From positions 3,084 through 67,083 of the forward strand of contig JAYZEV010000005.1 of NCBI GenBank assembly GCA_036337105.1: a stretch of 64,000 bases of DNA. The letters run 5' to 3'. The notes under the pieces were generated by a model. That model did not search any database and was not told the DNA's origin. It saw only the letters and a program-made list of their open reading frames with translations. This document shows, in pieces, positions 15,736 to 58,040 of the stretch. Origin of the DNA: Pseudomonadota bacterium (lineage in GTDB: Bacteria; Pseudomonadota; Alphaproteobacteria; Rhodobacterales; Rhodobacteraceae). Position numbers and translations under genes: made by a program. Position 1 is the first letter of the stretch; every line of letters begins with the position of its first letter.

Positions 15736-15753
15736 AAAAATATCAATACGCCC

Positions 15754-15783
15754 TTGAAAAAAAATACGAAGTATTCATACTAT
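15754..15783 (+). promoter_or_regulatory. Candidate sigma70-type promoter for the tmRNA precursor
   Basis: TTGAAA (15754-15759), an 18-nt spacer, then TACTAT (15778-15783), just upstream of the GC-rich tmRNA segment. Confidence 0.35.
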
Positions 15784-15794
15784 TAGTGTTTTCT

Positions 15795-16095
15795 TAGTAA
15801 AACTATGGTGATAAACGCGCATGTAATAAACGGATCGGACCCGGGGGCGGTACCCGGCGGCTCCACCAGATAAATGAGGGGCCGAAATAGGATCGACGGA
15901 CGTCAAAAGATGTAAGCTTTCACTCGGCGGGATGGCCACCGATATCGGCGCAAAACGTATAATTGCAAATGACAATTATGCTCCGGTAGCGGTTGCTGCA
16001 TAAGCAGTAACTAAGCCGAAACTTAAGTCCAGTCCGATAGCTCGCACTGGCGGGGTCCGCAGGCACCTGGCAACAGAAGCCTGCACTCGATTTTG
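15795..16095 (+). ncRNA. ssrA: Circularly permuted (two-piece) tmRNA gene; ends approximate
   Basis: The acceptor piece ends ...CCGGG-GGCGGTA-CCCGG-CGGCTCC-ACCA (CCA at 15866-15868). Nine nt later the coding piece starts GGGGCCGAAATAGGATCGACGG (15878-). The acceptor stem GGGGCCG/CGGCTCC contains the G3:U70 alanine identity pair. The tag reading frame GCA AAT GAC AAT TAT GCT CCG GTA GCG GTT GCT GCA TAA (15965-16003) encodes ANDNYAPVAVAA*. Confidence 0.8.
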
Positions 16096-22596: not shown

Positions 22597-22804
22597 AAAA
22601 TACCGTCCCCCACTCCAACTCCCAATACGCACATAAATTGATCAAGGTATTACCAGTAAACTACATATGAGTAATTGTAATGCTTTTTTTATATTTTTCA
22701 AAAGTTTAATCCATCTCAAAAAAAATTAATTGATTCCCCTTAATTTTCATGGAACAGGTAAATTTTAAATTCAATTGTTTATGCACACGTCGAAAGAAAG
22801 AAAA

Positions 22805-23704
22805 ATGGATTGGGATAAACTTAGGATCTTCCATGCAGTAGCAGATATCGGGAGTTTAACTCACGCTGGGGTAAAACTTCGTCTTTCACAATCTGCGGTC
22901 AGCCGGCAAATCAGAAACCTCGAGGATCACCTGAACGTAATTTTATTTCATAGGCATGCGAGAGGACTTATACTTACTGAGCAAGGAGAACTCCTTTTTG
23001 AAGCTACCCGCCAGATGTCCAAGAGGCTTGATGCAGCTTCCGCGCGTATAAAAGATAGCAAAGATGGGGTTTCAGGAGAATTAAGAGTTACAACTACCAC
23101 AGGTTTTGGAACTTTATGGTTAGCTCCTAGATTAGGGCGACTATATGAAAAATATCCAAAGTTGCGAATAAATTTAATGCTCGAAGAGCGGGTTCTTGAT
23201 TTACCAATGAGAGAAGCTGATGTAGCTATTCGAATGAAAGAGCCGAGTCAAGCCGATCTTATTCGACGTCGCCTCATGCAAATAAGTATAAAATTTTTCG
23301 CGCATCCGAACTATGTGAACCAGTACGGATATCCTCAATCATCGGAGGAGATGTCCAGTCATCGTCTAATCTGTCATAGTCCAGATTCACCTCAGGTTAG
23401 CGCAGGGGCAAGGTGGGTAGAGCAATTTGTAAGCGCAAACGATAGCTCTATGATGATGGTTAACAATTACTATGGAATTTTACAGGCGGTTCTTCACGGC
23501 TTTGGCATAGGAGCACTGCCAGATTACTTGGTTTTGGATTTTCCCGAATTAGTCCCTATACTTCCCGGATCAGTATCCGATAGTTTCCCTGTGTTTCTCG
23601 CTTATCCAGAGGAGTTGAGGCATTCTAAGAGAGTAAATGCGTTCAGAGATTTCGTAATCAAGGAAATTGTAGAAGATCGTAAAAAAAGAGACTCAGTTAG
23701 TTGA
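22805..23704 (+). CDS. LysR family transcriptional regulator
   Basis: N-terminal wHTH (MDWDKLRIFHAVADIGSLTHAGVKLRLSQSAVSRQIRNLEDHL) plus a LysR substrate-binding domain. It is divergent from the oxidoreductase gene. Upstream TTG 22775 and ATG 22781 are also possible starts. Confidence 0.9.
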   Translation: MDWDKLRIFHAVADIGSLTHAGVKLRLSQSAVSRQIRNLEDHLNVILFHRHARGLILTEQGELLFEATRQMSKRLDAASARIKDSKDGVSGELRVTTTTGFGTLWLAPRLGRLYEKYPKLRINLMLEERVLDLPMREADVAIRMKEPSQADLIRRRLMQISIKFFAHPNYVNQYGYPQSSEEMSSHRLICHSPDSPQVSAGARWVEQFVSANDSSMMMVNNYYGILQAVLHGFGIGALPDYLVLDFPELVPILPGSVSDSFPVFLAYPEELRHSKRVNAFRDFVIKEIVEDRKKRDSVS

Positions 23705-23817: not shown

Positions 23818-24693
23818 ATGAAGAAAAAAGAATTTAAAATTGACGGAGAGACTTTTAATGTTTGGTATTGGGAAGGACCAAAAGATGGAAGAGTTTTTCA
23901 TTGGGCGCATGCAAACGGTTTTAATGGAGCCACGTATGAAAACTTTTTGTCAAGACTATCTAAATATTTTCATGTTTATGCGTGGGACGGTCGTCTTCAT
24001 GGATTGTCTCAAAACCTAGCTAAACCTGTTGATGGGCGCCTATATGATGGTTATTCCCAAGACCTAATTAAAATAATTGACACTATCAATTCAAATCATG
24101 AGAAACCCGTGGTTCTGGCTGGTCATTCATTTGGAGCATCTTTATGTGTTAAGGCTGAAGCCTCTTTGCGAGACAAAATAGAGTGTATCATTCTTGCTGA
24201 CCCTGTGTTTTTTACTCCTTTACAAAGAACTGCTTGCCGAACTCTTAGATTCTTAGGCTTCAAACTACCAAGAAACCTATATCTTTCACAGAACGCGCTA
24301 AAACGAAAAAACTTTTGGAGAAATTCGGCTGCTCTGCTGGACGAATATTCAAAAAAATCCCTGTTTAAAAATTGGGACGAGTATAGCTTAAAAAATTATG
24401 TAAAATATGGAACAACTAAACAAGGAAATGGTATTAAATTGGCTTGCTCACCGGAGCTAGAGTCTCAGATTTTCCGGGAAAGCGAAAACACATTCCTCAG
24501 TAACCACATTATTTCACTGAAAACACCCACTTATATATTCTCTGCGCAATATGGTTCTCCACCGTCCTCAAAAAGTGCTATTTGGAGATCTAAGTATGTA
24601 ATTGCAAAAACAAGAATATCAGGGGCTAATCATTTTTTCCCTGTGGAAAGAGCGGCCACTTTCTCAGAGATGATAATTGAACTTCTTTGTTAA
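23818..24693 (+). CDS. Alpha/beta-fold hydrolase
   Basis: Nucleophile elbow GHSFGAS, an HG-type oxyanion region (WAHANGFNG), and a length typical of the fold. Confidence 0.75.
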   Translation: MKKKEFKIDGETFNVWYWEGPKDGRVFHWAHANGFNGATYENFLSRLSKYFHVYAWDGRLHGLSQNLAKPVDGRLYDGYSQDLIKIIDTINSNHEKPVVLAGHSFGASLCVKAEASLRDKIECIILADPVFFTPLQRTACRTLRFLGFKLPRNLYLSQNALKRKNFWRNSAALLDEYSKKSLFKNWDEYSLKNYVKYGTTKQGNGIKLACSPELESQIFRESENTFLSNHIISLKTPTYIFSAQYGSPPSSKSAIWRSKYVIAKTRISGANHFFPVERAATFSEMIIELLC

Positions 24694-24824: not shown

Positions 24825-25100
24825 ATGCAGAAATTATTCATAATTTTGTTAATGAATGTTTGGGCTAATGGCGAACCAGAAATTGTTCAATATGGAACAA
24901 GCGTATTAGGTGATTACTATGATACAAGAGAAGAATGCGAAGCAAGGCTCATACAGCTCTCCGACGGAGAAGACCTTAGGAAAGAAAAAGGGATCAGGGG
25001 TATAGTCAGGACTGATACAGTTTTCAGAGCGTACGACCAAGCAGGTAGCGTTGTACAGCAATATTCCTGCTTAGAAGTAAACTTACGAAATTCAAATTAA
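24825..25100 (+). CDS. Small secreted hypothetical protein (91 aa)
   Basis: ATG at 24825 is preceded by AAGGA at 8-nt spacing. MQKLFIILLMNVWANG looks like a signal peptide. I recognise no family. Confidence 0.4.
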   Translation: MQKLFIILLMNVWANGEPEIVQYGTSVLGDYYDTREECEARLIQLSDGEDLRKEKGIRGIVRTDTVFRAYDQAGSVVQQYSCLEVNLRNSN

Positions 25101-25114
25101 TTGGCAGTTTTATA

Positions 25115-25561
25115 GTGCGAAAAATAGTGAGAAGAGCTTTTACAGGGTTAGAGTTGATTTTTTTATTTGCGGGGGTTTCGTTACCCTTGGTAACAATCGA
25201 CGAATTTTGGTTCTTTACTTCCAATTTTTCAATACTTTCTTTAATTTTTACACTTTTCCAGTCAGGAGAGAGCATACTGGGAGCATTGCTAGTTGTCTTT
25301 TGCGTTTTTATTCCATTTTATAAAAGCTTCAGTCGTATCATTAGTGAAGAAAGGTTCGAAAAAATACCCCTACATAAATTTGCAATGATAGATATGTTTC
25401 TTATAAGCTTCTTAATTTTTGGAAGCAAAATGTCATATTTTTATGAAGTTCGGCTTGAAGAAGGCTTCTATTTCCTATGTGCATATCTGCTCATGAGTTA
25501 CTTTAGCACAATATTAAATTACCTTCAAATCAAGCAAACAAGTTCAAAAAAAAACCTTTGA
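25115..25561 (+). CDS. Single-domain PqiA-like integral membrane protein
   Basis: Four predicted TM segments. FLFAGVSLPLVTI...SGESILGALLVVFCVFIPFYK...KFAMIDMFLISFLIF resembles the paraquat-inducible protein A repeat unit (compare the WSMLDVF motif). GTG start. Confidence 0.5.
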   Translation: MRKIVRRAFTGLELIFLFAGVSLPLVTIDEFWFFTSNFSILSLIFTLFQSGESILGALLVVFCVFIPFYKSFSRIISEERFEKIPLHKFAMIDMFLISFLIFGSKMSYFYEVRLEEGFYFLCAYLLMSYFSTILNYLQIKQTSSKKNL

Positions 25562-25693: not shown

Positions 25694-25709
25694 TGGCATG
25701 CATTTTGCT
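25694..25709 (+). promoter_or_regulatory. Candidate sigma54 (-24/-12) promoter upstream of the flagellin-like gene
   Basis: TGGCAT-gcatt-TTGCT compares with the consensus TGGCAC-N5-TTGCW. GG (25695-96) and GC (25707-08) are separated by exactly 10 nt. The site is 72 nt upstream of the ATG at 25781. Confidence 0.45.
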
Positions 25710-25780
25710 TCTATAAACTAAATAAAATCTCGTCGTTATCCGTGTTGATGAAGAGTAAAAACAAGCAATACGGGTGACAG

Positions 25781-28315
25781 ATGAGTCTTGTAATAAATAC
25801 AAACATGAGCAGTTATATTTCTACACAACATGTAGATAGATATTCACGAAACACAGAAAACTCAATAGCAGCTATAGCGTCGGGCAAGAGAGTAAATAGC
25901 GCAAAAGATTTCCTTAATGGGGAGTCTTTGATAAATAGTTTTCGAGTGCAATCGACGGCGCTGAAAGTTAACTTGTCAAATATCAAGGATGGGCTAAGTC
26001 TTGCTGACAGGGCTGAGCAATCAATTTCCCAAGGGCAAGCTATATTACAAACTATGAGAGCACTGTCCGTGCAATCAGCAAATGGAATTTATAAAACTCG
26101 CGCTGGAGATTCAGTGTATTCTCCGGCCACTGCCACCTTTCAAGTAACAGGTGGGACGAACGGGACTTATGCCTCTGGCACCATTACCCTTACAGGCGCA
26201 ACTGAGGGGTCGCAAGCAAGTGGGTCTCTCACTTTTTCTGGCGCACACGCAGGAACCCAAGCAAGCGGAAGCTTCGCGATTTCAAATGCGACAGACGAGG
26301 CAAATGCGCGCGGTCAATTTACCGTTGGCGGGGGATCAGGAGCAAGTGGCGACAACATAAATACTATTACGGTAAACGGCGTTCAAATAAATGATAATGC
26401 CATTTCACATACCGGAAACAACAGGACAACAGCCGCAGCGATTGTTACTGAAATCAATGGATCAAGCCAGAGTGGAAACTTCACTGCATCCCGAAGTGGA
26501 AGCACGGTATATATTACGGCTGATACTGCGGGTACTGCACCAAATGGGCACGTAGTCGCTGTCTCAACGTCAGGCAGCGCATCTGCAAGTGGCATCAGCA
26601 ATATGGCGAACGGACTTGATAATACTCAGACGACCATTAGTAGTTTAACCGTGAATGGAACAAATGTCTTGTCGGGAGCACCATTGAGTGTGACCGGCGG
26701 CAACAATGCTATAGCCAGTGCCATAAGATCAGCATTCTCGAGTAGCGATTTTTCGGTTTCGGGATCTGGATCAACTGTAACTGTGACCTCAAATACGAAA
26801 AACTCAAGTCAAAATGGATATGCCGTGCGACTTAACAAGTCAAATGTCTCAGGACCCGCCGCTTCAAGTAACGACGGCTCTCTCAATTTATCTGGAGGGG
26901 TCACAGCCACAACGACCACAATTACTAATGTAACTGTTAATGGCGGCTCAAATCTTATCAATGGCTCCGGATCAGTCACGGTAACGGGTGATAACAGTGA
27001 TATCGCCACAGCAGTTGCTGCCCGGATATCGAGCGGTGATTACACAGCTTTTAGAAGTGGCTCGAGTGTTACATTCCTGTCAAACACTAAAGATCAAAGT
27101 CAAAATGGTTTCGCGGTTACCGGAAGCGTCTCACATGTTAGTGGGGATAATACTACGAGTCGCAGCGCGGGAACATTAAGCAGTGGTGATACTACTTCCA
27201 CCAATAGTGTTTCGGCCATCACCGTAAACGGAACCAATATTTTAGCGGGAACAGTAAATCACAACGGCGGCAACTCAGGGACAGCCAATGCGATAAGAGA
27301 CGCCATAAATGCTAATTCAGCAGCATCTGGTTTTCAAGCTTCTACATCGGGTGCACGAATAACAATTACCGCAACAACGAAAAATACAGGTCATAATGGC
27401 TACGTTATCGCCATGACAAAAGCAAACTCCGATACTTTTAATGAAATCGCAATGAGCTCACGCACCAACTTTTCCGGAGGGGATACACCTTCAAACAACG
27501 CTTTCACCGAGATTCGGGTAAAAGGTACCAAAATAAACAACAACAATATTCTGCATACTGGCAATAATGCGACTACTGCCGATGCAATTGCTAATGAAAT
27601 TAACAATTCGACGACAGACAGAAACTACACGGCCTCCTCCACAGGAAATTCTGTGACCATTTACTCAGACACTGTTCCACTTTGGGAAGACAATGACGAG
27701 TCAGTCACGGTAGCTGTTATTGGAACAGCAACTCACAACAACGACAATAGTAATGCAAAAATGGATGGCTCCGTCAGGATAGAGGGTGGAGCATTGACTT
27801 ATATCAACAATGAAATCACCAAACTAATTGTAGAATACGATAGCGGCATGAGTGAAACAACTTTCAACGATAAAAGCCTCTTTAATGGCACCAGTTATTC
27901 GTTTAGTTCGGGCGCGGCCGATGTATCAAGCTCAATAGAAACTCCGACTTTCACGCATTCATCCTTGAATACCGACACGTTGGACTTGACGGTAAACGAA
28001 GCGTCGACATCACTGACTTATATTGATACGCAATTGGAGAGCTTAAGGCAGGCTCGCTCGGAATATGCCGCCTTCGCTAATCGGCTTGAATTTGAAATCG
28101 ATTATATAGCCGATGCAATAGTAACAGCCACCAGAAGTGTTTCAATTATTCAAGACACTGATATGGCGGAGTACACAACGCAATTCGTAAGGAACAGTTT
28201 CTTAGAAGATGCAGCTCTCTCAGTGCATATGCAATCAAGACTACAAAAACGCGATGTCCTTAATTTATATTTTTCTCAGTCAAGGGTTGAAGGACAAGGA
28301 CGCTTCTATTTTTAA
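25781..28315 (+). CDS. Giant flagellin-family protein (844 aa) with a repeat-built central region
   Basis: The N-terminus MSLVINTNMSSY...ASGKRVNSAKD...GQAILQTMRALSVQSANG and C-terminus YAAFANRLEFEIDYI...RSVSIIQDTDMAEYTTQFVRNSFLEDAALSVHMQ align to the flagellin D0/D1 helices. The S/T/G/N-rich centre has no Cys. Confidence 0.85.
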   Translation: MSLVINTNMSSYISTQHVDRYSRNTENSIAAIASGKRVNSAKDFLNGESLINSFRVQSTALKVNLSNIKDGLSLADRAEQSISQGQAILQTMRALSVQSANGIYKTRAGDSVYSPATATFQVTGGTNGTYASGTITLTGATEGSQASGSLTFSGAHAGTQASGSFAISNATDEANARGQFTVGGGSGASGDNINTITVNGVQINDNAISHTGNNRTTAAAIVTEINGSSQSGNFTASRSGSTVYITADTAGTAPNGHVVAVSTSGSASASGISNMANGLDNTQTTISSLTVNGTNVLSGAPLSVTGGNNAIASAIRSAFSSSDFSVSGSGSTVTVTSNTKNSSQNGYAVRLNKSNVSGPAASSNDGSLNLSGGVTATTTTITNVTVNGGSNLINGSGSVTVTGDNSDIATAVAARISSGDYTAFRSGSSVTFLSNTKDQSQNGFAVTGSVSHVSGDNTTSRSAGTLSSGDTTSTNSVSAITVNGTNILAGTVNHNGGNSGTANAIRDAINANSAASGFQASTSGARITITATTKNTGHNGYVIAMTKANSDTFNEIAMSSRTNFSGGDTPSNNAFTEIRVKGTKINNNNILHTGNNATTADAIANEINNSTTDRNYTASSTGNSVTIYSDTVPLWEDNDESVTVAVIGTATHNNDNSNAKMDGSVRIEGGALTYINNEITKLIVEYDSGMSETTFNDKSLFNGTSYSFSSGAADVSSSIETPTFTHSSLNTDTLDLTVNEASTSLTYIDTQLESLRQARSEYAAFANRLEFEIDYIADAIVTATRSVSIIQDTDMAEYTTQFVRNSFLEDAALSVHMQSRLQKRDVLNLYFSQSRVEGQGRFYF
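26150..26329 (+). repeat. Four tandem 15-aa coding micro-repeats inside the flagellin-like gene
   Basis: GGTNGTYASGTITLT / GATEGSQASGSLTFS / GAHAGTQASGSFAIS / NATDEANARGQFTVG (aa 124-183). Confidence 0.7.
26366..27760 (+). repeat. Five tandem ~93-98-aa coding repeats (flagellin-IN-motif-like modules)
   Basis: Units start at aa 196 (ITVNGVQIN), 289 (LTVNGTNVL), 384 (VTVNGGSNL), 480 (ITVNGTNIL) and 578 (IRVKGTKIN). Each continues ...G(G/N)N..(I/T)A.A(I/V)...(I/F)N/S......(F/Y)(T/S/Q)AS.SG(S/A/N).(V/I)T(I/V/F)...T....NG(Y/F/H)(A/V)(V/I). The units are diverged at the DNA level. Confidence 0.75.
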
Positions 28316-28400: not shown

Positions 28401-28422
28401 CTTGGCCGCGTTTGTGGCCAAG
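28401..28422. terminator. Candidate bidirectional terminator hairpin between the convergent flagellin-like and methyltransferase genes
   Basis: CTTGGCC-gcgtttgt-GGCCAAG (7-bp stem, 8-nt loop) is followed by a T-rich stretch on the plus strand. It is the only obvious hairpin in the 170-bp convergent spacer. Confidence 0.35.
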
Positions 28423-28485: not shown

Positions 28486-29137
28486 TTAAAACTCTATTAT
28501 ACCACATTTATTCCCTACAACTCTATGTGTTAAGCCATTTTCATCCACAAAACTCATAAATGCATCATGAGCTCCATCGCACCATTGATTTTCCAGAACA
28601 TCATCCACTATGACAACCGCATTGGCTCCCAAAAAGGGTTTACAGCTGTTCAAAACGGCTTTGGTCGGTTTATACAAATCAACGTCCAAAAATAAAAAAT
28701 CGATTGTTCCTATTTTCGAGAAGTCAAACCTGGCTGCATCTATCATTACAGGCTTTACAAAATCAAACTCCTTGAAGTTTTTTCGGAACCTATCGTAATC
28801 ATTGTAACGAAATCCAAAAAAATCGCTTCGGTTCTTTCCTCTGTTTTGGACCTCGTAATTGACATCTGTTTCAGTGAACCCAGAAAAAGTGTCTATACAA
28901 AAGTATGTGCACAAAAGATTGCTACTTACAATGTACTGGCAAATGAATCTGGTGGTCATTCCGCGAGCAACTCCAACTTCAACTATGTTTATATGTTTTT
29001 TGCCTGCGGCGGCTCTATTTATACCGTTGACAAGCTCTACCAACTGGATCGGCTCGAGGTTGTAAGGATATGTGGCATCACCGAGTTTCGTGTAACGAAA
29101 GACTATTTTTTTAAGAAATTCTTTGATTTTTTTTCAT
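28486..29137 (-). CDS. TylF/MycF-family SAM-dependent O-methyltransferase; 5' end out of frame with its ATG (A8 tract)
   Basis: SAM motif I (VEVGVARGMTT) and the TylF-type LFLDVDLYKPT...VVIVDDV...CDGAHDAFMSF. The frame stays open and protein-like upstream of the track's TTG start (KKIKEFLKKIVFRYTKLGDATYPYNLEPIQL) up to a TGA at 29134-29136. An ATG at 29137-29135 is one base out of frame across A8 (29127-29134). Confidence 0.7.
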
Positions 29138-29539
29138 CTTCTTATTCAATATCTTTTTACAAATTATAATCTTTTTTTCTTTTTAACAAGAAGAAACCCG
29201 TAGAGTTTAATCTTAACAGATCTAAATGAAAAAAAACAAAAGATGTTTGAGTATATAAAAATCTATCCCCAACCATTAACTTGATTCTTAAGATGATGTA
29301 TTTCTTGTGTTGATTTAATTATCACCTACCATATTAACTATAATACCTGTAACTCTTATTTCGCATTCCACCAGGCCTAATTTATTTTGTTTCTGAAAGA
29401 GAAAAGCACAGCTCCGCTTTAAAAAAATTAAGCGTAAAATAGGTATTTGTGGCTGCAAGTTTTGTCGCAAAAAAAAGTAATGAAAATTGTCAGGTTAGTG
29501 ATAGGTTCTTATTTATTTGTCTTTGAGAGAGTGCTGAGT

Positions 29540-31249
29540 ATGGAAATCACGATCGATGCCGCTTTGCAAAGAGGTATCAAAGCACACAAGTCTGGGAATA
29601 TTCATGAAGCGCATAAGTTTTTTTCCGCCATTTTAAAAGTGCAACCTAATCATCCCAATGCAAATCACAACATGGGACTTCTTGCCATCAATATGGGAAA
29701 GGTTGTGGAAGCCCTTCCTTTTTTTAAAGCATCACTAAAAGCGGATGCAAGTGTTGAGAAGTTTTGGGTAAGCTACATCGACGCGCATCTGAGACTCAAC
29801 AGAATATCTGATGCTAAACACCTTTTCCAGATAGCTGAAGAAAAGGGGTTTAAAGGACACGTTTTGAGAAAGATGCGGCTAAAGCTTGATGAGACTGCAT
29901 TAAAGAGCGCGTCAAATTATTTGATTGCAGGAAATAATTTCTATAAAAGTGGCGACTTCGAACGCGCCATAGAAAAATATGAACAGGCTCTCAGTGCAAA
30001 CCCAGAATATGCAGAGGCCTACTTTAATAAAGCGAATGCCTTGATTGAGAATAATAACGATGCTTTCAACGCAATAAAAAATTATAAAAGTGCGCTTGAG
30101 ATAAACCCAAATTACATGAGAGCTTATAACAATCTGGGTAATATCTTTAAAGATATAGGAGATCAAGCTTCTGCAAAGAAACAGTATAAGACCGCCATCA
30201 AGATTAGCCATAAATATGCGACAGCCCATTTTAATCTTGCACAAGTGAAGAAATACAAAAGAATTGATAAACAGTTCTCAAGAATGAAAAGGCTCCACGA
30301 AAGCCTAAACACTAGTATTGAGGATAGATGTGTTTTAGGCTTTGCCTTATCCAAAGCATATGAAGATATGGGAAAACTAGACAAATCATTTTATTTATTG
30401 AAAGAAGCTAATGCTCTTCGCAAGCAAAGTTTAAGTTACGACTTCAAAAACGACAAAAAAATTTTTGAAAAAATTAAAGGTACAAACCAAAGCATTTTTA
30501 ACAAATCGTTACATTATAAAACTGCTGATCAAGCTGATTTAATACCGGTTTTTATTGTTGGTATGCCTCGGTCCGGTACAACCCTAATAGAGCAAATTAT
30601 TTCCTCACACTCTCAAATTACTGGAGGAGGCGAATTAAATTTTGTTGGCCTTTATGGTACGCAACTTGTTACCGGAAGTTCCAAACCTTCCCCGAAAACT
30701 TTGACTGACTTTAGAGAAAAATATCTATCTGCTCTAGGTAAATTTTCAAACGAAAAGCGTTTCGTAACTGATAAAATGCCTCATAATTTCTTGTTCCTTG
30801 GTCTAATCTGTGCCGCGTTACCAGAGGCAAAGATAGTTCATGTCACTCGAGAACCACGCGCAACCTGCTGGTCAAATTTTAAGCATTACTTTCCATCAAC
30901 AAATTTGGGCTACTGCTATGACCTGAATGATTTGGTCAAATATTATGAGATGTACCGAAATCTGATGGGATTTTGGCAAGAAAAATACGCAAGTAGGATT
31001 CATCACGTTAACTATGACGTTCTCACTAACAATCAAAACCTCGAAACCAAAAAACTAATTAAATACTTAGAAATAGGGTGGGAGAGGGACTGCCTTTATC
31101 CCCAGAAAAATCAAAGATTCGTGCGTTCTGCGTCGAGTCAGCAGGTAAGGGAAAAGATTTATAAGAATAGTTCAAAAAAATGGCTTGATTTTGAGGTTTT
31201 TTTAAATGGGGCCTTCGAGGGTTTAACAAATACGTCTTTGGGCGATTAG
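29540..31249 (+). CDS. TPR-repeat protein fused to a C-terminal sulfotransferase domain
   Basis: The N-terminal ~300 aa hold several TPR units (e.g. AHKSGNIHEAHKFFSAILKVQPNHPNANHNMGLL; GNNFYKSGDFERAIEKYEQALSANPEYAEAYFNKANAL). The C-terminal domain has the PAPS 5'-phosphosulfate-binding loop GMPRSGTTL (PRSGTT at 30566-30583). Start is taken as MEITIDAAL. Confidence 0.8.
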   Translation: MEITIDAALQRGIKAHKSGNIHEAHKFFSAILKVQPNHPNANHNMGLLAINMGKVVEALPFFKASLKADASVEKFWVSYIDAHLRLNRISDAKHLFQIAEEKGFKGHVLRKMRLKLDETALKSASNYLIAGNNFYKSGDFERAIEKYEQALSANPEYAEAYFNKANALIENNNDAFNAIKNYKSALEINPNYMRAYNNLGNIFKDIGDQASAKKQYKTAIKISHKYATAHFNLAQVKKYKRIDKQFSRMKRLHESLNTSIEDRCVLGFALSKAYEDMGKLDKSFYLLKEANALRKQSLSYDFKNDKKIFEKIKGTNQSIFNKSLHYKTADQADLIPVFIVGMPRSGTTLIEQIISSHSQITGGGELNFVGLYGTQLVTGSSKPSPKTLTDFREKYLSALGKFSNEKRFVTDKMPHNFLFLGLICAALPEAKIVHVTREPRATCWSNFKHYFPSTNLGYCYDLNDLVKYYEMYRNLMGFWQEKYASRIHHVNYDVLTNNQNLETKKLIKYLEIGWERDCLYPQKNQRFVRSASSQQVREKIYKNSSKKWLDFEVFLNGAFEGLTNTSLGD

Positions 31250-31382
31250 CATCCTGACGTAGTTTTTTTTGAAAAATTTATTATTTTCACTATCTAGAAA
31301 TTGATCGGACAAGCCTAATACTTCGAATCTGCTCGGAGCAGCCTCTGGTAATTGAACCCGGTCTCCCGTTAGAGCTAATCAG

Positions 31383-32687
31383 TCATACAAACCGATTAAC
31401 GGCATTCTCGAGGCGTTCTTGCCCGCCAGACCGTGGTTCGGGAGAAATGTCATCGGCGATTATCCTATCCGAAATCGATGATAGCGTCTCTTCCGCTAGC
31501 ATCTTCTTTGCGGATGGAGTGTCCCAACCAGCATACCGTTTTGATCGTTCATGTTCGATCAAGCCGTCTTCAAGTAGAGCGGCAGCGGATTTAAGCGCCC
31601 TTGCGCAAACATCCATTGCTCCTACATGCGAAAGGATTAGATCCGCTGGGTCCAAAGATTGGCGGCGAAGTTTTGCGTCAAAGTTTGTCCCTCCAGAGGT
31701 GAAGCCTCCGCCCCTTAGAATCTCATAGTAAGCCATCATGACTTCAGGCACATTGTTGGGAAATTGGTCTGTATCCCAACCAGACTGGTAGTCGTTTCTA
31801 TTCATATCAATCGAACCAAATATTCCCATTGAATTAGCTAGAGCGATTTCATGTTCGAAACTATGACCCGCAAGGATTGCATGACCCGCTTCAATATTTA
31901 CCCTAACCTCGTCCTCAAGGCCAAAACGCCGAAGAAACCCATAGACGGTCGCAACATCGTAGTCATATTGATGCTTTGAGGGTTCCTGCGGTTTGGGTTC
32001 TACCAGAATCTGCCCTTTGAAGCCGATCTTATGCTTGTAGTCGACGACCATTTGCAGGAAACGACCAGCCTGTTGCACCTCTCGTGTTAGATCGGTATTC
32101 AGCAGCGTTTCATAACCTTCTCGGCCGCCCCACAAGACATAGTTTTCTCCACCAAGCTTCACTGTTGCATCCATACAGGATTTCACTGTGGCAGCAGAAT
32201 AGGCAAAGACATCTGGGTCGGGGTTTGTCGCAGCGCCAGACATGAACCGCCGATGCGTAAATAAGTTGGCCGTACCCCAAAGAAGCTTGGTGCCGCTAGA
32301 GTCCATTTTTTCGGCGATATAGTCGGTGATTTTTTCAAGATTACTCAGACTTTCGGCAAAGCTTCTGCCTTCGGGACGAACGTCGAGGTCGTGAAAACAG
32401 AAGTAGGGTACTCCCAAAATCTCGAACATCTCAAACGCAACATCTGCCTTACGACGCGCATGTTCCATTGTGTCCCCGAACCACGGTCGTTCGAAAGTCT
32501 GACCACCAAACGGATCGCCTCCAGGCCATGCAAAGCTGTGCCAATAGGCGACCGCGAATCTTAGGTGGTCCTCCATTCGTTTACCCATAACCAGTTCGTT
32601 TGCGTCATAGTGTCGAAACGCGAAGTCGTTTTTGGTCTCTGTGCCCTCAAAAGTGCACTTTGGAATCCCATGGAAAAAATCAGTCAT
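31383..32687 (-). CDS. xylA: Xylose isomerase
   Basis: 434 aa with [23 protein letters not shown] and [17 protein letters not shown] motifs. It is clearly more GC-rich than the flanks. Confidence 0.95.
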
Positions 32688-34123
32688 TTAAGCTCCTTAA
32701 TCGCGCCCTGCGCGTCTTTGAATTGTTCGTGCTTGGCGCTGTAGGCGCTCGTGAGTGATGGATCTGGTTCGATTGTGCAGGATATTTTTGGTCGACCTGC
32801 AACCTCAACGTCGCCGGCGTCAGCTGCCATCATCGCCAAGCGCGCCGCGCCAAATGCACCACCAAAATCCCCATCAATGGGTAAATCGATAGGAATGTTT
32901 AGGGCGGTTGCAAGGATCTGTAGCCAATAATCTGAGTTACTGCCACCTCCAACGGCCAACAAGCTGTCAAATTTCGTGCCCGTTGAAGCCAGCGCGTCAC
33001 GGCAATCGCAAAAAGCAAATGCTACTCCTTCCAAAACTGCCTTGCTCACCGCCTTAAGATCCGAGGCGTGATCCAGCCCAACAAACGCACCGCGTATTTT
33101 TGCGTCGTTTAGCGGTGTCCGTTCACCGCCGATATAGGGAAGAAAAAGTGCGCGCCCGGGTGCCGACACCGGTCCCAAATCGGCCGTTAACTCGGATGGC
33201 AATTTCCCAGCTAGACCGGAAAACCAATTGAGCGCATCCGTTGCTGCCAAAATAACACCCATTTGGTGCCAGGTGTTGGGGAGCGCATGGCAAAAGGTGT
33301 GAACGGCCGTTTCTGGCGCCGGGGAATATGTATCCGTCGCTGCGAACAGAACACCGGAAGTCCCAAGTGACAGAAACGCTTGCCCATCGGTAACCGCGCC
33401 AACGCCAATACCGGAGGCAGCGTTATCGCCGCCACCGCCAGCCACGACGACCGAGGGGCTAAAGCCCCAGCGTGACGAGATATCCTGTCGTAAATTCCCA
33501 CCAGGCTCTGAGCCCTCGACTATTTCGGGCATGTGACCTCGATCGAGATCGGAAAGGGCCAAGAGATCATCTGACCAATCACGCTTGGCCGTGTTAAGCC
33601 AACTTGTTCCGGCGCTGTCAGATGGATCACTAATGTATTCACCCGTTAGCCAAAGACGCAAATAATCTTTGGGTAACAGGACTTTGTGAATTTGCGAAAA
33701 CAAGTCCGCTTCGTGATTTTGTATCCACTTCAGCTTGGGCGCCGTGAACCCAGGAAAGACGATGTTGCCACTTATTGCGCGCCAATCCTCTACCGCGTCC
33801 ATTTCAGAGGCTTCACTGCTGCTACGGGTGTCATTCCACAAAATGCTTGGTCTAAGAACGCGGTTTTGCGCATCAATGACCGTGGCGCCGTGCATCTGAC
33901 CGGATAGTCCAATTCCACGAACTGTACCTAGAGCGCTTCGGGAACTCAACTCGTCAAATACGTTCTCAGCTGCCGAAATCCAGTCAGCAGGATCTTGTTC
34001 AGACCAGCCATCGTGAGGACGTGAAACCTCTAAACCTGACGAAGCGGAATCCACAACTGCTTGATCATCGTTGATCAAAACACCTTTTAGTCCCGACGTC
34101 CCAAGATCCAGGCCTAGAAACAT
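32684..34123 (-). CDS. xylB: Xylulokinase
   Basis: FGGY kinase N-terminus ([16 protein letters not shown]) and C-terminal domain ([17 protein letters not shown]). There is a 4-nt overlap with xylA. Confidence 0.9.
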
Positions 34124-34272
34124 TTCACCTGTCCAGACTCCCTAAGTACACTGATTTGCTCAAGTGCTTCCGAATGCACCCATCCCAACTCAAAATTGTA
34201 CCCACTCGTCATTCTTACTGTTACTTTCAATGCAGGATTCTATGGTCAGAATTATCGAAATATCAGTATATT

Positions 34273-34358
34273 TGGTGGAGGGGATAGGATTCGAACCTAT
34301 GTAGGGTTTCCCCGACGGAGTTACAGTCCGTTGCATTTGACCGCTCTGCCACCCCTCC
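34273..34358 (-). tRNA. tRNA-Tyr (anticodon GTA), CCA encoded
   Basis: The reverse complement is GGAGGGG-TG-GCAGAGCGGTCAAATGC-A-ACGGA-CTGTAAC-TCCGT-CGGGGAAACCCTAC-ATAGG-TTCGAAT-CCTAT-CCCCTCC-ACCA. It folds as a cloverleaf with a long variable arm, 86 nt. Confidence 0.9.
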
Positions 34359-35771: not shown

Positions 35772-37598
35772 ATGAAATTACCAGACCGTTTTGCGCTTAA
35801 GCTTTCCAAGGAAAACATCCATTTACTCGTTCAAAGTCCCGACGGGTGTCAAAGAATTATTGGGACAAGTGACCCAAACAAACCGACACTTACAAACGAC
35901 TTAAAACGGCTCTTGGACCAACTCAAAGCTCTTACTGATGACTATCCTGTAGTGGACGTTTTGCTGCCAAATGATCTTGTTTTGTGCCAGAGGGTCAAGG
36001 TTGATGAACCGTTTAGCCAATCTAGCGCAACCGATTTTATTGGGGAAAAGTGTGACCTAGAGAAACACGAAGTTATGGTGGCAATAAGTACAGTCAGCAA
36101 TGAAAATAATCAAACAATAGCAGCAGTGACTTCCAAAACTATAACGGAAACAAGAATATTTCTAAAGAATGCAGGATTTTATACCCAACACTTCATGGCG
36201 GCAAGCCCAGTAAGTGGATTTAAAAAGGCACCAATTTTCGCCTCCGATAAGGTTCCTTGGAATCGTAACACGATAAAGAAAACTGCCACAGCTACAGCTT
36301 GGACTGTTGCCGCCGGATTTTTAATTGCATTATTTCAAATTTTTTCAAATACTTACCTAGTAACACCCAGTGCAAAAATACTGGATAATCCTGAGATAGC
36401 TCAATTTGAATACCAAACACCATCAAAATATTCACCCTCAAATCTAAACAAAAAACCTTTATACCACATCGAGGCACCAGAAATCACTCAGCTCAAACCA
36501 TTGAGTAAAGTCACAACATCTAATCCAAAGAAACATTCAAGTCTTAACTTTCTAACTGACCAATCAGTGACAACAAGTTCTAAGCCAGTGGAAGTTAAAG
36601 GTCGATATTTGGAGCGGTCCGCTAGTATAGAAACTGAGGCTCGTCTTGGCTACGTAGAGGCTAAGTACAACGAAAGCTATGCCAGAAAAATGTCTCATAT
36701 AACCTCGCCAGCAGGAAATAGTATTTTGTACCTTTACTTAACTCCAAAATTAAAGATGCAGCTGTTAACGACGTCGATAGGCAGTTTGAGTCCTCTACCA
36801 GAAGAGAGAGTTTCTAGATCAGAGGTAGTGTCACTAAAAGGTGAATTCTCGCGAATACAAACCCCATCTGTCAAAAATAACCACTTGACGGATTTCGTGC
36901 CTTCTTCTGAGCGACCGATGCATAGCAATTTAGATTGGTTAATGAGAGATAGTACTTTAACCAAAAATCAAAATTTAGACTTAACACCATTAGCACGTTT
37001 CTTTCACAATGACTATCGGTTAGAAAGCCAATTGAAGGATAAACCGATATTGAAAGTAAAGGTTTTTGAGTACTCCCAAACCATTGAAACAGGGCAATAC
37101 TATGAAACCATAGCAGCAATCGATCCCTACGAGCTGACCGAGAAGGAGCGTTTGCTTTCTAAAAAGTACAAACCGAATGAAAGGCCGAAAATTATTGCAG
37201 CCATAAAACTATTAGCCGAACCAACTCTCTCATCTGGCGCTATAACCTATAGCGAATTCCCGATGGTCCGTCCATTAAACGTAATCGAACTTGCTAGGTT
37301 GGAGCCTAATTCGATCAGTATCTCAGCAAAAGCCACCAAACGACCTACATTCCCTCGTCGAGCCTCAGTTGAAAGTAACGCGACAATCAATAATATTCTA
37401 GAACTTAATAGGACTAACCTTATCGGAGTATTTGGAACAGAATTAAATGCAGTAGCACTTATAAGACTCTCTTCAGGTAGGGTAATTAAAGTTAAGGTAG
37501 GGGATAGATTCCAAGGATGGCAGGTACTTACCATACATAAAGATAAAATTGACCTTGCAAACGGAGCAAAATTAGAAACCTTACGACTTCCTGGTTGA
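35772..37598 (+). CDS. Hypothetical single-pass membrane protein (608 aa)
   Basis: A long ORF after an AT-rich 245-bp spacer. It has a ~165-aa N-terminal domain, one TM (about aa 172-192, TATAWTVAAGFLIALFQIF), a long S/T/P/K/N-rich region and a compact beta-rich C-terminal ~70 aa. Confidence 0.5.
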   Translation: MKLPDRFALKLSKENIHLLVQSPDGCQRIIGTSDPNKPTLTNDLKRLLDQLKALTDDYPVVDVLLPNDLVLCQRVKVDEPFSQSSATDFIGEKCDLEKHEVMVAISTVSNENNQTIAAVTSKTITETRIFLKNAGFYTQHFMAASPVSGFKKAPIFASDKVPWNRNTIKKTATATAWTVAAGFLIALFQIFSNTYLVTPSAKILDNPEIAQFEYQTPSKYSPSNLNKKPLYHIEAPEITQLKPLSKVTTSNPKKHSSLNFLTDQSVTTSSKPVEVKGRYLERSASIETEARLGYVEAKYNESYARKMSHITSPAGNSILYLYLTPKLKMQLLTTSIGSLSPLPEERVSRSEVVSLKGEFSRIQTPSVKNNHLTDFVPSSERPMHSNLDWLMRDSTLTKNQNLDLTPLARFFHNDYRLESQLKDKPILKVKVFEYSQTIETGQYYETIAAIDPYELTEKERLLSKKYKPNERPKIIAAIKLLAEPTLSSGAITYSEFPMVRPLNVIELARLEPNSISISAKATKRPTFPRRASVESNATINNILELNRTNLIGVFGTELNAVALIRLSSGRVIKVKVGDRFQGWQVLTIHKDKIDLANGAKLETLRLPG

Positions 37599-57864: not shown

Positions 57865-58040
57865 AAAAAACTAACGGTGGGACCGGAAGAACCGTAAAGA
57901 GTTCTAATCCTTGAGAGCCTGGAAAACCAGGTGGGTGCCGGATAATCAAGGCCACAACCGAAAACAGAGCCAGCTCCCTTTCAAGAACTTAAGGCCACTA
58001 GGATGTAGGTCTTGTACGAAAACCCCAGAACCACCGAAAA
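57865..58040 (-). ncRNA. ssrS: Candidate 6S RNA (ends approximate)
   Basis: A GC-enriched, non-coding stretch lies directly upstream of the 5-FCL gene, matching the conserved ssrS-ygfA synteny. The minus-strand 5' arm GGTGGTTCTGGGGTTTTCGTA pairs imperfectly with the 3' arm TACGGTTCTTCCGGTCCCACC. Internal helices (AGTTCT/AGAACT, CCTGG-TTTT-CCAGG) and a 3' T-run are present. A TAATAT -10-like box lies at 58045-58050. Confidence 0.4.

What the first reader, a model, noticed from the sequence alone, without database searches (positions are those of the whole stretch)
25781..28315. Giant flagellin homologue with no flagellar genes anywhere in the 64-kb window
The first ~110 aa and last ~100 aa align convincingly to the flagellin D0/D1 helices. 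The matching segments include INTN, SGKRVNSAKD, LQTMRALSVQSANG, FANRLEFEIDY and IQDTDMAEYTTQF. At 844 aa the protein is 2-3 times the length of ordinary flagellins, and the excess is an S/T/G/N-rich, Cys-free repeat array. Its neighbours are an alpha/beta hydrolase, a small secreted protein, a PqiA-like membrane protein, a sugar-type O-methyltransferase and a TPR-sulfotransferase. The window contains no fli, flg, flh, mot, che, fliS or flaG gene. It could be the filament protein of a flagellum encoded elsewhere, that is, a giant flagellin. Alternatively it could be a flagellin-derived surface or secreted filament used in another context. The window alone cannot distinguish these.
Basis: partly seen in the sequence, partly recalled or inferred. 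Interest (0 to 1): 0.85.

Follow-up and report, generated by a model that had tools for sequence, protein, structure and literature searches.

The report
Large divergent flagellin with phage-like repeats
This gene encodes a real but unusually divergent 844-residue flagellin from an uncultured low-GC marine Rhodobacteraceae bacterium, whose exposed middle is five copies of a small domain otherwise found mostly in phage tail proteins; whether the host builds a flagellum could not be checked.

Summary
ORF 25781-28315 (+) encodes an 844-aa, Cys-free protein. Its termini pass Pfam's cut-offs for Flagellin_N and Flagellin_C, and no ORF of 120 aa or more in the 64-kb window has a flagellar, motor or chemotaxis domain.

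NCBI already annotates the protein as "flagellin". At 844 aa it is "large" (>800 aa) rather than "giant" (>1000 aa) by the published definition.

New findings:
- The centre is five ancient tandem ~95-aa alpha/beta units. They are weakly Flagellin_IN-like and occur mostly in podophage nozzle-type tail proteins.
- The family is rare and confined to low-GC pelagic Rhodobacteraceae. It sits at one fixed chromosomal site (LysR, alpha/beta-hydrolase, flagellin).
- It is under strong purifying selection throughout (dN/dS 0.045).
- Its D0/D1 core is only 24-27% identical to any other flagellin found. It lacks the DDAAG and AQAN motifs and carries a conserved 13-16-residue C-terminal extension that none of 11 comparison flagellins has.
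- Methyl- and sulfotransferase genes recur just downstream.

The most likely reading is a filament subunit of a flagellum encoded elsewhere, with a thick, possibly modified outer layer. A non-motility role in a flagellum-less host is not excluded, because the carrier genomes could not be scanned.

The parts
25781..28315 (+). Flagellin gene, 844 aa plus stop codon (NCBI MEE2773950.1)
   Evidence: ORF. Pfam Flagellin_N and Flagellin_C both above cut-off. Exact sequence found in NCBI, named flagellin. dN/dS 0.045 against the 91%-identical relative.
25781..26116 (+). aa 1-112: N-terminal D0/D1 helical region. The near-universal DDAAG motif is replaced by DFLNGES.
   Evidence: Pfam match at aa 5-107. 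PDB phmmer N half scores 50 bits. AF2 predicts helix 41-100, with D0 at low confidence. Motif comparison. dN/dS 0.085.
26117..26356 (+). aa 113-192: Gly/Ser/Thr/Ala-rich short repeats of about 15 aa, predicted to form a beta-strand stalk
   Evidence: AF2 places strands at 117-124, 132-138, 147-153, 162-166 and 177-184, with pLDDT about 75-85. Mean family identity 0.55.
26357..27811 (+). aa 193-677: five tandem ~95-aa alpha/beta units. U1 26357-26635, U2 26636-26920, U3 26921-27208, U4 27209-27502, U5 27503-27811.
   Evidence: Unit HMM E-values 1e-25 to 1e-29. AF2 of U3+U4 has pLDDT 75, each unit being beta-alpha-beta-beta-beta. Pfam Flagellin_IN is the top family but below threshold. The same unit occurs in phage tail proteins. 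dN/dS 0.038.
27812..28012 (+). aa 678-744: return segment with a helix at 672-691 followed by short strands, leading back to D1
   Evidence: AF2 secondary structure. Mean family identity 0.52.
28013..28267 (+). aa 745-829: C-terminal D1/D0 helical region. The AQAN motif is replaced by MQSR.
   Evidence: Pfam Flagellin_C covers profile positions 1-85 of 86. PDB phmmer C half scores 30 bits. dN/dS 0.02. Motifs.
28268..28312 (+). aa 830-844: family-specific C-terminal extension SQSRVEGQGRFYF, beyond the point where ordinary flagellins end
   Evidence: The alignment of 9 family members with 11 other flagellins shows the extension only in the family. V836, G838, Q839 and G840 are nearly invariant. 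It is predicted to be coil.
25714..25737 (+). Conserved promoter-like bipartite motif TAAAC-N13-GTCGTT, about 45 nt upstream of the ATG
   Evidence: Invariant columns in the five-locus alignment. It occurs once per locus, always upstream of the flagellin, with 0.07 matches expected by chance in the window. There is no sigma-70-like site on the + strand in this region. It is not recognisable in the divergent locus L011.
25694..25709 (+). Sigma-54-like element TGGCAT-N5-TTGCT; its meaning is ambiguous
   Evidence: One mismatch to the consensus; 7 such sites in the window against 2 expected. The equivalent GG-N10-GC element lies on the opposite strand in L002, L005, L006 and L007.
28401..28422 (+). 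Terminator-like hairpin about 85 nt after the stop codon
   Evidence: Consensus scan: 9-bp stem with 6 G-C pairs and a T-rich tail.
23818..24693 (+). Alpha/beta-hydrolase (Hydrolase_4). Together with LysR (22775-23704) it is the only neighbour present in every family locus examined.
   Evidence: Pfam. Synteny. A functional link to the flagellin is not shown.
24825..25561 (+). Small 92-aa protein with a hydrophobic N-terminus (24825-25100) and a PqiA-like 148-aa membrane protein (25115-25561). They are frequent but not obligatory neighbours.
   Evidence: Pfam PqiA at 37.9 bits. Orthologues in L002 and L005. Both are absent in L011 and L016, which still carry the flagellin.
28486..29043 (-). TylF/Methyltransf_24-type O-methyltransferase; candidate flagellin or glycan modification enzyme
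   Evidence: Pfam. It is kept at the same position in the 91% relative L015. Methyltransferases also lie in this slot in L006 and L010.
29447..31249 (+). TPR-repeat plus sulfotransferase protein (600 aa); candidate flagellin modification enzyme
   Evidence: Pfam Sulfotransfer_3 at 129 bits plus TPR repeats. In L010 the same slot holds a TPR plus SAM-methyltransferase protein. The role is inferred and not tested.

Best explanation
This is the structural subunit (flagellin) of a flagellar filament in an uncultured, low-GC, pelagic member of the Rhodobacteraceae (Paracoccaceae). The N- and C-terminal helices (aa 1-112 and 745-829) form the D0/D1 core. That core is exported by a flagellar type III apparatus encoded elsewhere in the genome and polymerises into the filament tube. 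The roughly 630 residues in between leave D1 through a beta-strand stalk, form five bead-like Flagellin_IN-like alpha/beta domains, and return through a helix. This would give a thick outer layer rich in Ser, Thr and Asn. The layer is probably modified after translation by the methyl- and sulfotransferases encoded next door. It probably serves a surface function such as adhesion or shielding, because the same module decorates phage tail tips. The gene is a single transcription unit with its own non-sigma-70 promoter and its own terminator. Shown here: homology, domain architecture, the repeat module and its distribution, fixed synteny, and purifying selection. Inferred: export route, polymerisation, modification, and the surface function.
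For: Both flagellin domains pass Pfam's curated cut-offs, and both halves match solved flagellar filaments. The full-length model has the out-and-back flagellin layout, and its best structural match is the 792-aa Geovibrio thiophilus flagellin from a solved filament (9au6, E 1.5e-9). Large and giant flagellins with duplicated outer domains are proven filament subunits in Bermanella and Oleibacter (PMC6248924) and in Geovibrio (PMC11532411). dN/dS is 0.045 overall, 0.085 for the N-terminal and 0.02 for the C-terminal polymerisation regions. The gene has been kept intact at one locus across lineages whose housekeeping neighbours are only 47-85% identical. Such constraint on D0/D1 is what a polymerising, exported subunit would show. 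A conserved promoter-like motif specific to this gene, with no sigma-70 site, fits control by a dedicated sigma factor. Modification-type enzymes recur directly downstream in four lineages, as in known flagellin modification loci (my own knowledge).
Against: No flagellar, chaperone (FliS), cap (FliD) or junction (FlgK/L) gene lies within about 10 kb of any of the ten loci inspected, or anywhere in the 64-kb window. The D0/D1 core is only 24-27% identical to the nearest non-family flagellins found and lacks the DDAAG and AQAN motifs. A conserved 13-16-residue extension follows the point where all 11 comparison flagellins end. From established filament structures (my own knowledge), that terminus lines the narrow central export channel. 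The outer domains are as conserved as the core, which is unlike ordinary flagellins. Streamlined pelagic roseobacters often lack motility genes: HTCC2255 (36.9% GC) is scored as lacking fliC and cheAB, and the CHUG lineage has lost them. The presence of a flagellar apparatus in the carrier genomes was not tested.
Confidence: 0.6

Rival explanations
1. The protein is a flagellin-derived surface or secreted protein that no longer serves motility. The host has lost the flagellar motor, as many streamlined pelagic roseobacters have, and keeps this divergent flagellin as an adhesin, surface layer or other extracellular structure. It would be exported by a reduced flagellar export core or by another route. 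The family-specific C-terminal extension and the altered D0/D1 motifs would reflect the new assembly or export mode.
For: D0/D1 is extremely divergent and canonical motifs are lost. The conserved C-terminal extension is absent from all comparison flagellins. Constraint is uniform and strong on the outer domains. No flagellar gene lies near any of ten loci. Related streamlined lineages are reported to lack fliC and cheAB. The outer module is shared with phage tail-tip proteins, which contact cell surfaces. Sphingomonas A1 flagellins p5 and p6 are a precedent: they sit on the cell surface and bind alginate (PMC9751261).
Against: No flagellum-independent export or assembly route for a flagellin is established. 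Even the Sphingomonas proteins turned out to build a flagellum under other conditions. Strong purifying selection on the polymerisation helices (dN/dS 0.02-0.085) is most simply explained by canonical assembly. The absence of linked flagellar genes is uninformative at a vertically inherited housekeeping locus. HTCC2255 is not itself a carrier of this gene.
Confidence: 0.22
2. It is one of several flagellins in the genome. It would be a minor or condition-specific subunit co-assembled with, or replacing, an ordinary short flagellin encoded in a flagellar gene cluster elsewhere, for example to make the filament sticky during particle or phytoplankton attachment.
For: Multiple flagellins per genome are common in Alphaproteobacteria, and roseobacter genomes carry 1-6 fliC copies in the Feng et al. 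table. The gene has its own promoter and terminator and lies away from any cluster. Geovibrio also has several flagellin genes.
Against: No ordinary flagellin from the same lineage turned up. The D0/D1-only search found no closer relative than 24-27% identity, whereas co-assembling flagellins usually share very similar cores (my own knowledge). The carrier genomes were not scanned.
Confidence: 0.12
3. It is a decaying relic, a prophage or phage-derived structural protein, or a mis-assembled chimera.
For: The central module is mainly a phage tail-protein module. The gene's GC content (44.8%) is slightly above that of the window (41.4%).
Against: dN/dS is 0.045 with dS about 1.1. Full-length intact orthologues occur in ten or more independent assemblies at the same chromosomal site. 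There are no phage genes in the window. No DNA-level repeats are present that could cause mis-assembly.
Confidence: 0.03

Closest known systems
Large and giant flagellins with duplicated outer domains (Bermanella marisrubri, Oleibacter marinus; Thomson et al. 2018, PMC6248924)
   Same: Both have a conserved D0/D1 core and a very long central insert built by internal domain duplication, and both come from marine bacteria. The size class is 'large' for the window and 'giant' for the homologue P0002 (1165 aa).
   Different: Those are gammaproteobacterial and have two 'DE' regions plus an insert. Here there are 5-8 tandem copies of a small Flagellin_IN-like alpha/beta unit in an alphaproteobacterium. 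Homology of the unit to the DE region was not tested. Those proteins were shown by mass spectrometry to form the filament; this one has no experimental data.
Geovibrio thiophilus flagellin, 792 aa, solved in the filament (PDB 9au6; PMC11532411)
   Same: It is the best structural match to the full-length model (E 1.5e-9). It is a multi-domain outer region on a canonical core, and its outer domains arose by duplication of a domain related to flagellar proteins.
   Different: Sequence identity is only 14% over the structural alignment. The domain types differ (Ig-like and FliD-D2-like there) and are not a uniform tandem array. It has no C-terminal extension.
Vibrio-type polar flagellins (FlaA-E, about 377 aa; PDB 9rcb, 9n8m; NCBIfam PRK08869)
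   Same: They are the closest sequence relatives of the D0/D1 core (about 76 bits in phmmer, 103 bits for the NCBIfam model).
   Different: The scores are far below the family cut-offs (103 bits against 436). The DDAAG and AQAN motifs are changed, the length is more than twice as great, and a C-terminal extension is present.
Sphingomonas sp. A1 'cell-surface flagellins' p5 and p6 (PDB 2zbi, 3k8v; PMC9751261)
   Same: They are alphaproteobacterial flagellins with a Flagellin_IN-containing beta-domain that resembles a phage baseplate domain. They are the known precedent for a flagellin with a role on the cell surface beyond motility.
   Different: p5 and p6 are short and have one central domain. 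Their genome has flagellar gene sets, and they do form a flagellum on semi-solid medium. No polysaccharide binding is known for the present protein.
Podophage nozzle-type tail proteins following an SU10-type adaptor gene (e.g. P0019 in locus L008; BFVD hits including Rhodobacter phage RcTitan A0A0K1LKT2)
   Same: They carry 1-5 copies of the same ~95-aa unit (unit HMM E-values 1e-20 to 1e-22; Foldseek E 7e-5 to 1e-3). About 109 of the 150 best representative clusters have this scaffold.
   Different: The scaffold is entirely different, with no flagellin helices, and the genes lie in phage structural modules. Only the exposed module is shared.

Membership tests
Bacterial flagellin (FliC/Fla, Pfam PF00669 + PF00700) | N-terminal flagellin helical domain | tested here: met
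   Flagellin_N at aa 5-107, 50.3 bits against a cut-off of 26.6. The N half scores 50 bits against Vibrio flagellins.
Bacterial flagellin (FliC/Fla, Pfam PF00669 + PF00700) | C-terminal flagellin helical domain | tested here: met
   Flagellin_C at aa 745-829 covers profile positions 1-85 of 86, at 29.6 bits against a cut-off of 23.
Bacterial flagellin (FliC/Fla, Pfam PF00669 + PF00700) | Flagellin rather than the hook-filament junction protein FlgL, which shares the N domain | tested here: met
   NCBIfam flagellin models score up to 103 bits, against 28.6 bits for the FlgL model NF005187.
Bacterial flagellin (FliC/Fla, Pfam PF00669 + PF00700) | Out-and-back topology, with the terminal helices pairing into D0/D1 | tested here: inconclusive
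   AF2 predicts long helices at 41-100 and 738-787 with the central domains between them. D0 (aa 1-53 and 778-844) has pLDDT below 50 and the overall pTM is 0.37. Low D0 confidence is expected for a monomer, but the pairing is not demonstrated.
Bacterial flagellin (FliC/Fla, Pfam PF00669 + PF00700) | Chain ends within a few residues of the last D0 helix (...LLR/Q/G) | tested here: not met
   All nine family members continue for 13-16 residues (...LYFSQSKVEGQGKFYF). All 11 other flagellins aligned end at ...LLQ/R/I.
Bacterial flagellin (FliC/Fla, Pfam PF00669 + PF00700) | Membership of a named NCBIfam flagellin equivalog or subfamily | tested here: not met
   The best model, PRK08869.1-3, scores 103 bits against a cut-off of 436.
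Bacterial flagellin (FliC/Fla, Pfam PF00669 + PF00700) | Encoded in a genome with a flagellar export apparatus, hook-basal body and motor | not testable with these tools
The window's MAG is not in the contig index. None of these genes is present in the 64-kb window or within 10 kb of the gene in ten loci.
Bacterial flagellin (FliC/Fla, Pfam PF00669 + PF00700) | Polymerises into an extracellular filament | not testable with these tools
   This needs electron microscopy and proteomics. Strong purifying selection on D0/D1 is only indirect support.
Giant flagellins sensu Thomson et al. 2018 | Length above 1000 aa | tested here: not met
   At 844 aa the protein is 'large' (>800 aa) by that paper. 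The homologue P0002 is 1165 aa and has 8 units.
Giant flagellins sensu Thomson et al. 2018 | Central region built from the Oceanospirillales 'DE' region | not tested
   The DE-region HMM was not available. The unit here is about 95 aa and matches Flagellin_IN weakly.
Flagellin_IN motif (Pfam PF07196) | Match to the 55-position profile with a central Ile-Asn pair | tested here: inconclusive
   It is the top family among the unit pairs but below threshold: 4 of 28 members, best E 0.0055. Window unit U4 aligns to profile positions 2-55 of 55 at E 0.9 and 10.2 bits, against a cut-off of 22.7. An I-N pair at the end of the unit helix is visible in the sequence.
Flagellin modification locus (glycosylation or methylation island) | Transferase genes adjacent to the flagellin gene, recurring across relatives | tested here: inconclusive
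   The window has a TylF-type methyltransferase and a TPR-sulfotransferase. L015 has a TylF-type methyltransferase, L010 a TPR plus SAM-methyltransferase, and L006 an FkbM methyltransferase. L002, L005, L007 and L016 have none. No glycosyltransferase or sugar-nucleotide pathway is present, and the substrate is unknown.

The most novel reading that the evidence does not exclude
A lineage of streamlined, non-motile pelagic roseobacters has kept and remodelled a flagellin, giving it a new C-terminal extension, altered D0/D1 motifs and 5-8 phage-type adhesion modules. It would form a non-motility extracellular structure (adhesive fibre, surface coat or phage decoy) that is assembled without a complete flagellum.
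Probability: 0.2. Interest if true: 0.85.

Novelty: new variant of a known kind. Interest (0 to 1): 0.42.

Why it matters
If the carriers are flagellated, this adds a well-defined new outer-domain architecture to the known diversity of flagellins. It is a tandem array of a module shared with phage tail tips, in an ecologically important group, the pelagic roseobacters, where motility governs interactions with particles and phytoplankton. It also points to possible sulfation or methylation of a flagellar surface. If the carriers lack a flagellum, this would be a clear case of a flagellin recruited to a new extracellular role, and it would raise the question of how such a protein is exported and assembled. 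In either case, the sharing of a module between flagellar surfaces and phage nozzle proteins is a concrete lead on domain exchange between phages and the host structures they touch.

Tried and rejected
- **BLASTP self-comparison for repeats.** It returned nothing because of self-hit handling. I replaced it with hand-seeded units and an iterated HMM.
- **Exact look-up of the window's genes in the contig index.** The flagellin and the LysR protein are 'not on record', so the MAG could not be walked beyond the window.
- **Exact-sequence cluster look-ups for taxonomy.** Only unnamed metagenome members were found in the 90% clusters. Several minus-strand look-ups failed because my references trimmed the start codon instead of the stop codon.
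- **Sigma-54 promoter idea.** A near-consensus site faces the gene in the window, but the equivalent element is on the other strand in four relatives. I did not adopt it.
- **Sigma-28 consensus.** Only 4-5 of 8 positions match in the -10 element, and CtrA boxes are not conserved. The conserved TAAAC-N13-GTCGTT motif is therefore left unassigned.
- **Functional coupling with the small secreted protein and the PqiA-like protein.** Rejected, because both are absent in L011 and L016, which keep the flagellin.
- **The conserved ~610-aa unknown protein (35772-37598) and the 159-aa membrane protein in relatives.** Neither has an informative family match, and I did not link either to the flagellin.
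- **PHROGs scan of the P0020-type proteins.** No hit. Their phage nature rests on gene context and BFVD structural matches.
- **Fold search of the unit against PDB.** No significant match; the best is E 0.28.
- **Literature search for motility in the exact host lineage.** Only indirect data on HTCC2255 and CHUG were found.


Full report
**Observation.**
The ORF at 25781-28315 (+) is real and encodes 844 aa. Pfam places Flagellin_N at aa 5-107 (50.3 bits, cut-off 26.6) and Flagellin_C at aa 745-829 (29.6 bits, cut-off 23). NCBIfam flagellin models match at up to 103 bits and the FlgL model at only 28.6 bits, but no model comes near its curated cut-off. A phmmer search against all PDB chains matches both halves to solved flagellar filaments, best to the ~377-aa Vibrio-type polar flagellins at about 76 bits. 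The protein has no Cys, and its middle part is 30% Ser plus Thr. I scanned every ORF of 120 aa or more in the window with Pfam. All are housekeeping or metabolic, and none carries a flagellar, motor or chemotaxis domain. The one correction is to the word "giant": by the published definition, 844 aa is "large" (>800 aa), not "giant" (>1000 aa) (PMC6248924).

**Source organism.**
The exact protein is in NCBI as MEE2773950.1, "MAG: flagellin [Pseudomonadota bacterium]", on a 170,832-bp contig, so the flagellin annotation already exists. The window holds an alpha-type two-piece tmRNA and a 6S RNA. The adjacent LysR regulator has named relatives only in Rhodobacteraceae/Paracoccaceae. The window is 41.4% GC and the related loci are 36.5-38.8% GC. 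That is the range of the streamlined pelagic roseobacters such as HTCC2255, at 36.9% GC.

**The family and its locus.**
A search of 5.8 billion proteins found one 91% relative and about 17 full-length homologues at 41-54% identity, 804-1165 aa long. All come from metagenomes or MAGs, and one is labelled Rhodobacteraceae/Paracoccaceae. Only one of the GTDB species representative genomes, the Tara MAG NAT185, was found to encode the family. That scan used two peptide patterns and could have missed divergent members.

In all ten loci I could read, the gene sits at the same chromosomal site, directly after LysR and an alpha/beta-hydrolase. In most loci it lies between a POR-like oxidoreductase upstream and SpoU, a ~610-aa unknown protein and MgtE downstream. 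Flanking housekeeping proteins are only 47-85% identical between the window and L002, and the flagellin is 46% identical. The gene has therefore been inherited vertically across considerable divergence. More distant Rhodobacteraceae keep only the POR-LysR pair.

The small secreted protein and the PqiA-like protein are absent in two lineages that retain the flagellin, so they are not obligatory partners. No flagellar gene lies within about 10 kb in any locus.

**Architecture.**
After the N-terminal helices comes a stretch of short ~15-aa G/S/T/A-rich repeats (aa 113-192), followed by five tandem ~95-aa units (aa 193-677). Homologues have 5 to 8 units. No repeat is detectable at the DNA level, so the array is ancient.

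AlphaFold2 on a deep alignment of unit pairs gives a moderately confident model (pLDDT 75) in which each unit is a small beta-alpha-beta-beta-beta domain. The full-length model (pLDDT 70.5, pTM 0.37) shows these features:
- long D1 helices at 41-100 and 738-787;
- a low-confidence D0, as expected for an unpolymerised monomer;
- a beta-stalk, five beads, and a return helix at 672-691;
- a disordered C-terminal tail.

Its best structural match is the 792-aa Geovibrio thiophilus flagellin solved within a filament (9au6, E 1.5e-9). Helicobacter, Campylobacter and Pseudomonas flagellins follow.

**The repeat unit.**
Pfam Flagellin_IN is the family matched by most unit pairs, but always below threshold (4 of 28, best E 0.0055). 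The units carry the motif's characteristic Ile-Asn pair.

An exhaustive profile search of 1.84 billion representative proteins found the unit in 739 clusters at E ≤ 1e-3. Of the best 150, only four are flagellins. Three of these are family members, and the fourth is P0136, a 1392-aa flagellin with an ordinary C-terminus. About 109 share the scaffold of P0019 and P0020. P0019 is encoded in a phage structural module directly after an SU10-type adaptor gene, with terminase, portal-sized and capsid-sized genes upstream and an integrase nearby. That is the position of a podovirus nozzle or tail-tip protein.

Foldseek against predicted viral structures gives E-values of 7e-5 to 1e-3 to uncharacterised tailed-phage proteins, including one from Rhodobacter phage RcTitan. 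The central part of P0136 matches a tail-sheath PHROG. The weak PDB matches of the unit are to flagellin outer domains and to sheath decorations of flagellotropic phages; none is significant. The exposed module is thus shared between phage tail surfaces and this flagellin's outer surface.

**What is unusual.**
- *Divergent core.* Searching with the termini alone found family fragments and then nothing closer than 24-27% identity. That search uses a word prefilter, so closer relatives could in principle have been missed.
- *Changed motifs.* The near-universal DDAAG motif is DFLxGE/G in this family, and AQAN is MQTR/MQSR.
- *C-terminal extension.* All nine aligned family members continue 13-16 residues beyond the canonical end, with a conserved VEGQG followed by a hydrophobic or aromatic tripeptide. 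All 11 other flagellins aligned stop at ...LLQ/R/I. In solved filaments that terminus lines the narrow central channel (established knowledge), so the extension is mechanistically interesting.
- *Flat conservation.* Mean pairwise identity is 0.52-0.55 in D0/D1 and 0.47-0.60 in the units. In ordinary flagellins the middle is hypervariable.
- *Strong selection throughout.* dN/dS against the 91% relative is 0.045 overall, 0.085 for the N half, 0.02 for the C half and 0.038 for the units, with dS about 1.1. The protein is functional and constrained along its whole length.

**Expression signals.**
The 219-nt upstream region has no sigma-70-like site on the coding strand. It does contain a bipartite motif, TAAAC-N13-GTCGTT, about 45 nt before the ATG. 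The motif is invariant in the main clade and occurs once per locus; 0.07 matches are expected by chance in the window, where there is one further match inside a gene. Its geometry resembles sigma-28 or ECF-type promoters, but the -10 element matches the sigma-28 consensus at only 4-5 of 8 positions, so I leave it unassigned. It is not recognisable in the divergent locus L011.

A near-consensus sigma-54 element faces the gene in the window (25694-25709). The equivalent element is on the opposite strand in four relatives, so I do not rely on it. A terminator-like hairpin follows the gene at 28401-28422.

**Downstream slot.**
The segment between the flagellin and SpoU varies between lineages. It repeatedly holds modification-type enzymes:
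- window: a TylF-type O-methyltransferase and a TPR-sulfotransferase;
- L015: the same TylF-type methyltransferase;
- L010: a TPR plus SAM-methyltransferase protein;
- L006: an FkbM methyltransferase.

Other lineages have none. This pattern fits post-translational modification of the Ser/Thr-rich surface, but that is inference. In the window this slot also holds a TIM-barrel gene and an FGGY kinase gene of 49-53% GC next to tRNA-Tyr. That looks like a small acquired island.

**Interpretation.**
The simplest explanation is a genuine filament subunit of a flagellum whose other genes lie elsewhere, with a thick and probably modified outer layer built from a phage-shared module (confidence 0.6). 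It fits the complete flagellin domains, the strong constraint on the polymerisation helices, and the proven examples of large and giant flagellins.

The main rival (0.22) is a flagellin recruited to a non-motility extracellular role in a host without a flagellum. Support for it comes from the extreme core divergence, the C-terminal extension, the constrained outer domains, and the lack of any linked flagellar gene. In addition, related streamlined roseobacters (HTCC2255, CHUG) are scored as lacking fliC and cheAB.

The Sphingomonas A1 "cell-surface flagellins" are both the precedent and the caution. They do act at the cell surface, yet they also build a flagellum under other conditions.

A third possibility (0.12) is that this is one of several flagellins and a minor or conditional subunit. 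Relic, prophage-protein and artefact readings are effectively excluded by the selection and synteny data (0.03).

**What could not be done.**
I could not scan the carrier genomes for the flagellar apparatus. That scan is the decisive next step.

**Verdict.**
This is a real, already-annotated flagellin and a new variant of a known kind. Interest is moderate as it stands. It would be high if the carriers prove to lack flagella.

Noticed in passing
window 28486-34358: The variable slot after the flagellin holds a window-specific insert: a TylF-type methyltransferase, a TPR-sulfotransferase, a xylose-isomerase-like TIM-barrel protein and an FGGY sugar kinase. The last two genes are 49-53% GC against 41% for the window, and the insert abuts tRNA-Tyr (34273-34358, minus strand). 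It looks like a small horizontally acquired island at a tRNA.
   Followed up: partly
L008 10001-13147 (P0019) and its neighbours; P0020: The flagellin's ~95-aa repeat unit occurs 5 times in P0019 and twice in P0020. P0019 is encoded right after an SU10-type adaptor gene in a 67%-GC prophage-like module with terminase, portal-sized and capsid-sized genes and an integrase. About 109 of the 150 best representative clusters share this scaffold, yet it has no PHROG or Pfam family.
   Followed up: partly
P0136 (1392 aa) and P0077 (5533 aa): P0136 is a separate giant flagellin with an ordinary C-terminus. It carries about 6 matched stretches of the same unit, and part of its centre matches a phage tail-sheath PHROG (phrog_165, E 3e-15). 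P0077 is a 5533-aa protein with 28 matched stretches of the unit.
   Followed up: partly
window 25694-25709 (+) versus L002, L005, L006 and L007 upstream regions (- strand): A sigma-54-like GG-N10-GC element is conserved in the intergenic region upstream of the flagellin. It is inverted in the window relative to the four other loci, and the window has about 34 extra nucleotides there. No explanation was found.
   Followed up: partly
window 35772-37598 (+): A 608-aa protein has no family match apart from a faint PilP-like C-terminal stretch in its orthologue. It is conserved next to SpoU in all related loci; the C-terminal 164 aa are 66% identical to the L002 orthologue.
   Followed up: partly
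L002 13069-13548, L005 6211-6690, L006 13066-13545, L007 12876-13367, L010 13659-14135: A ~159-aa predicted membrane protein with no family match lies directly downstream of the flagellin in five relatives. It is absent from the window, from L015 and from L016.
   Followed up: no
window 15750-16087 (+) and 57876-58034 (-): The window holds an alphaproteobacterial two-piece (permuted) tmRNA (278 bits) next to SspB, and a 6S RNA (52 bits). Both are ordinary but useful for placing the organism.
   Followed up: no
window 23818-24693 (+): The alpha/beta-hydrolase (Hydrolase_4) immediately precedes the flagellin, or is separated from it only by small genes, in every family locus. It is missing from this position in distant Rhodobacteraceae that lack the flagellin. 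It is about as divergent as the flagellin (47% identity to L002). This could be a co-inherited block or a coincidence.
   Followed up: partly
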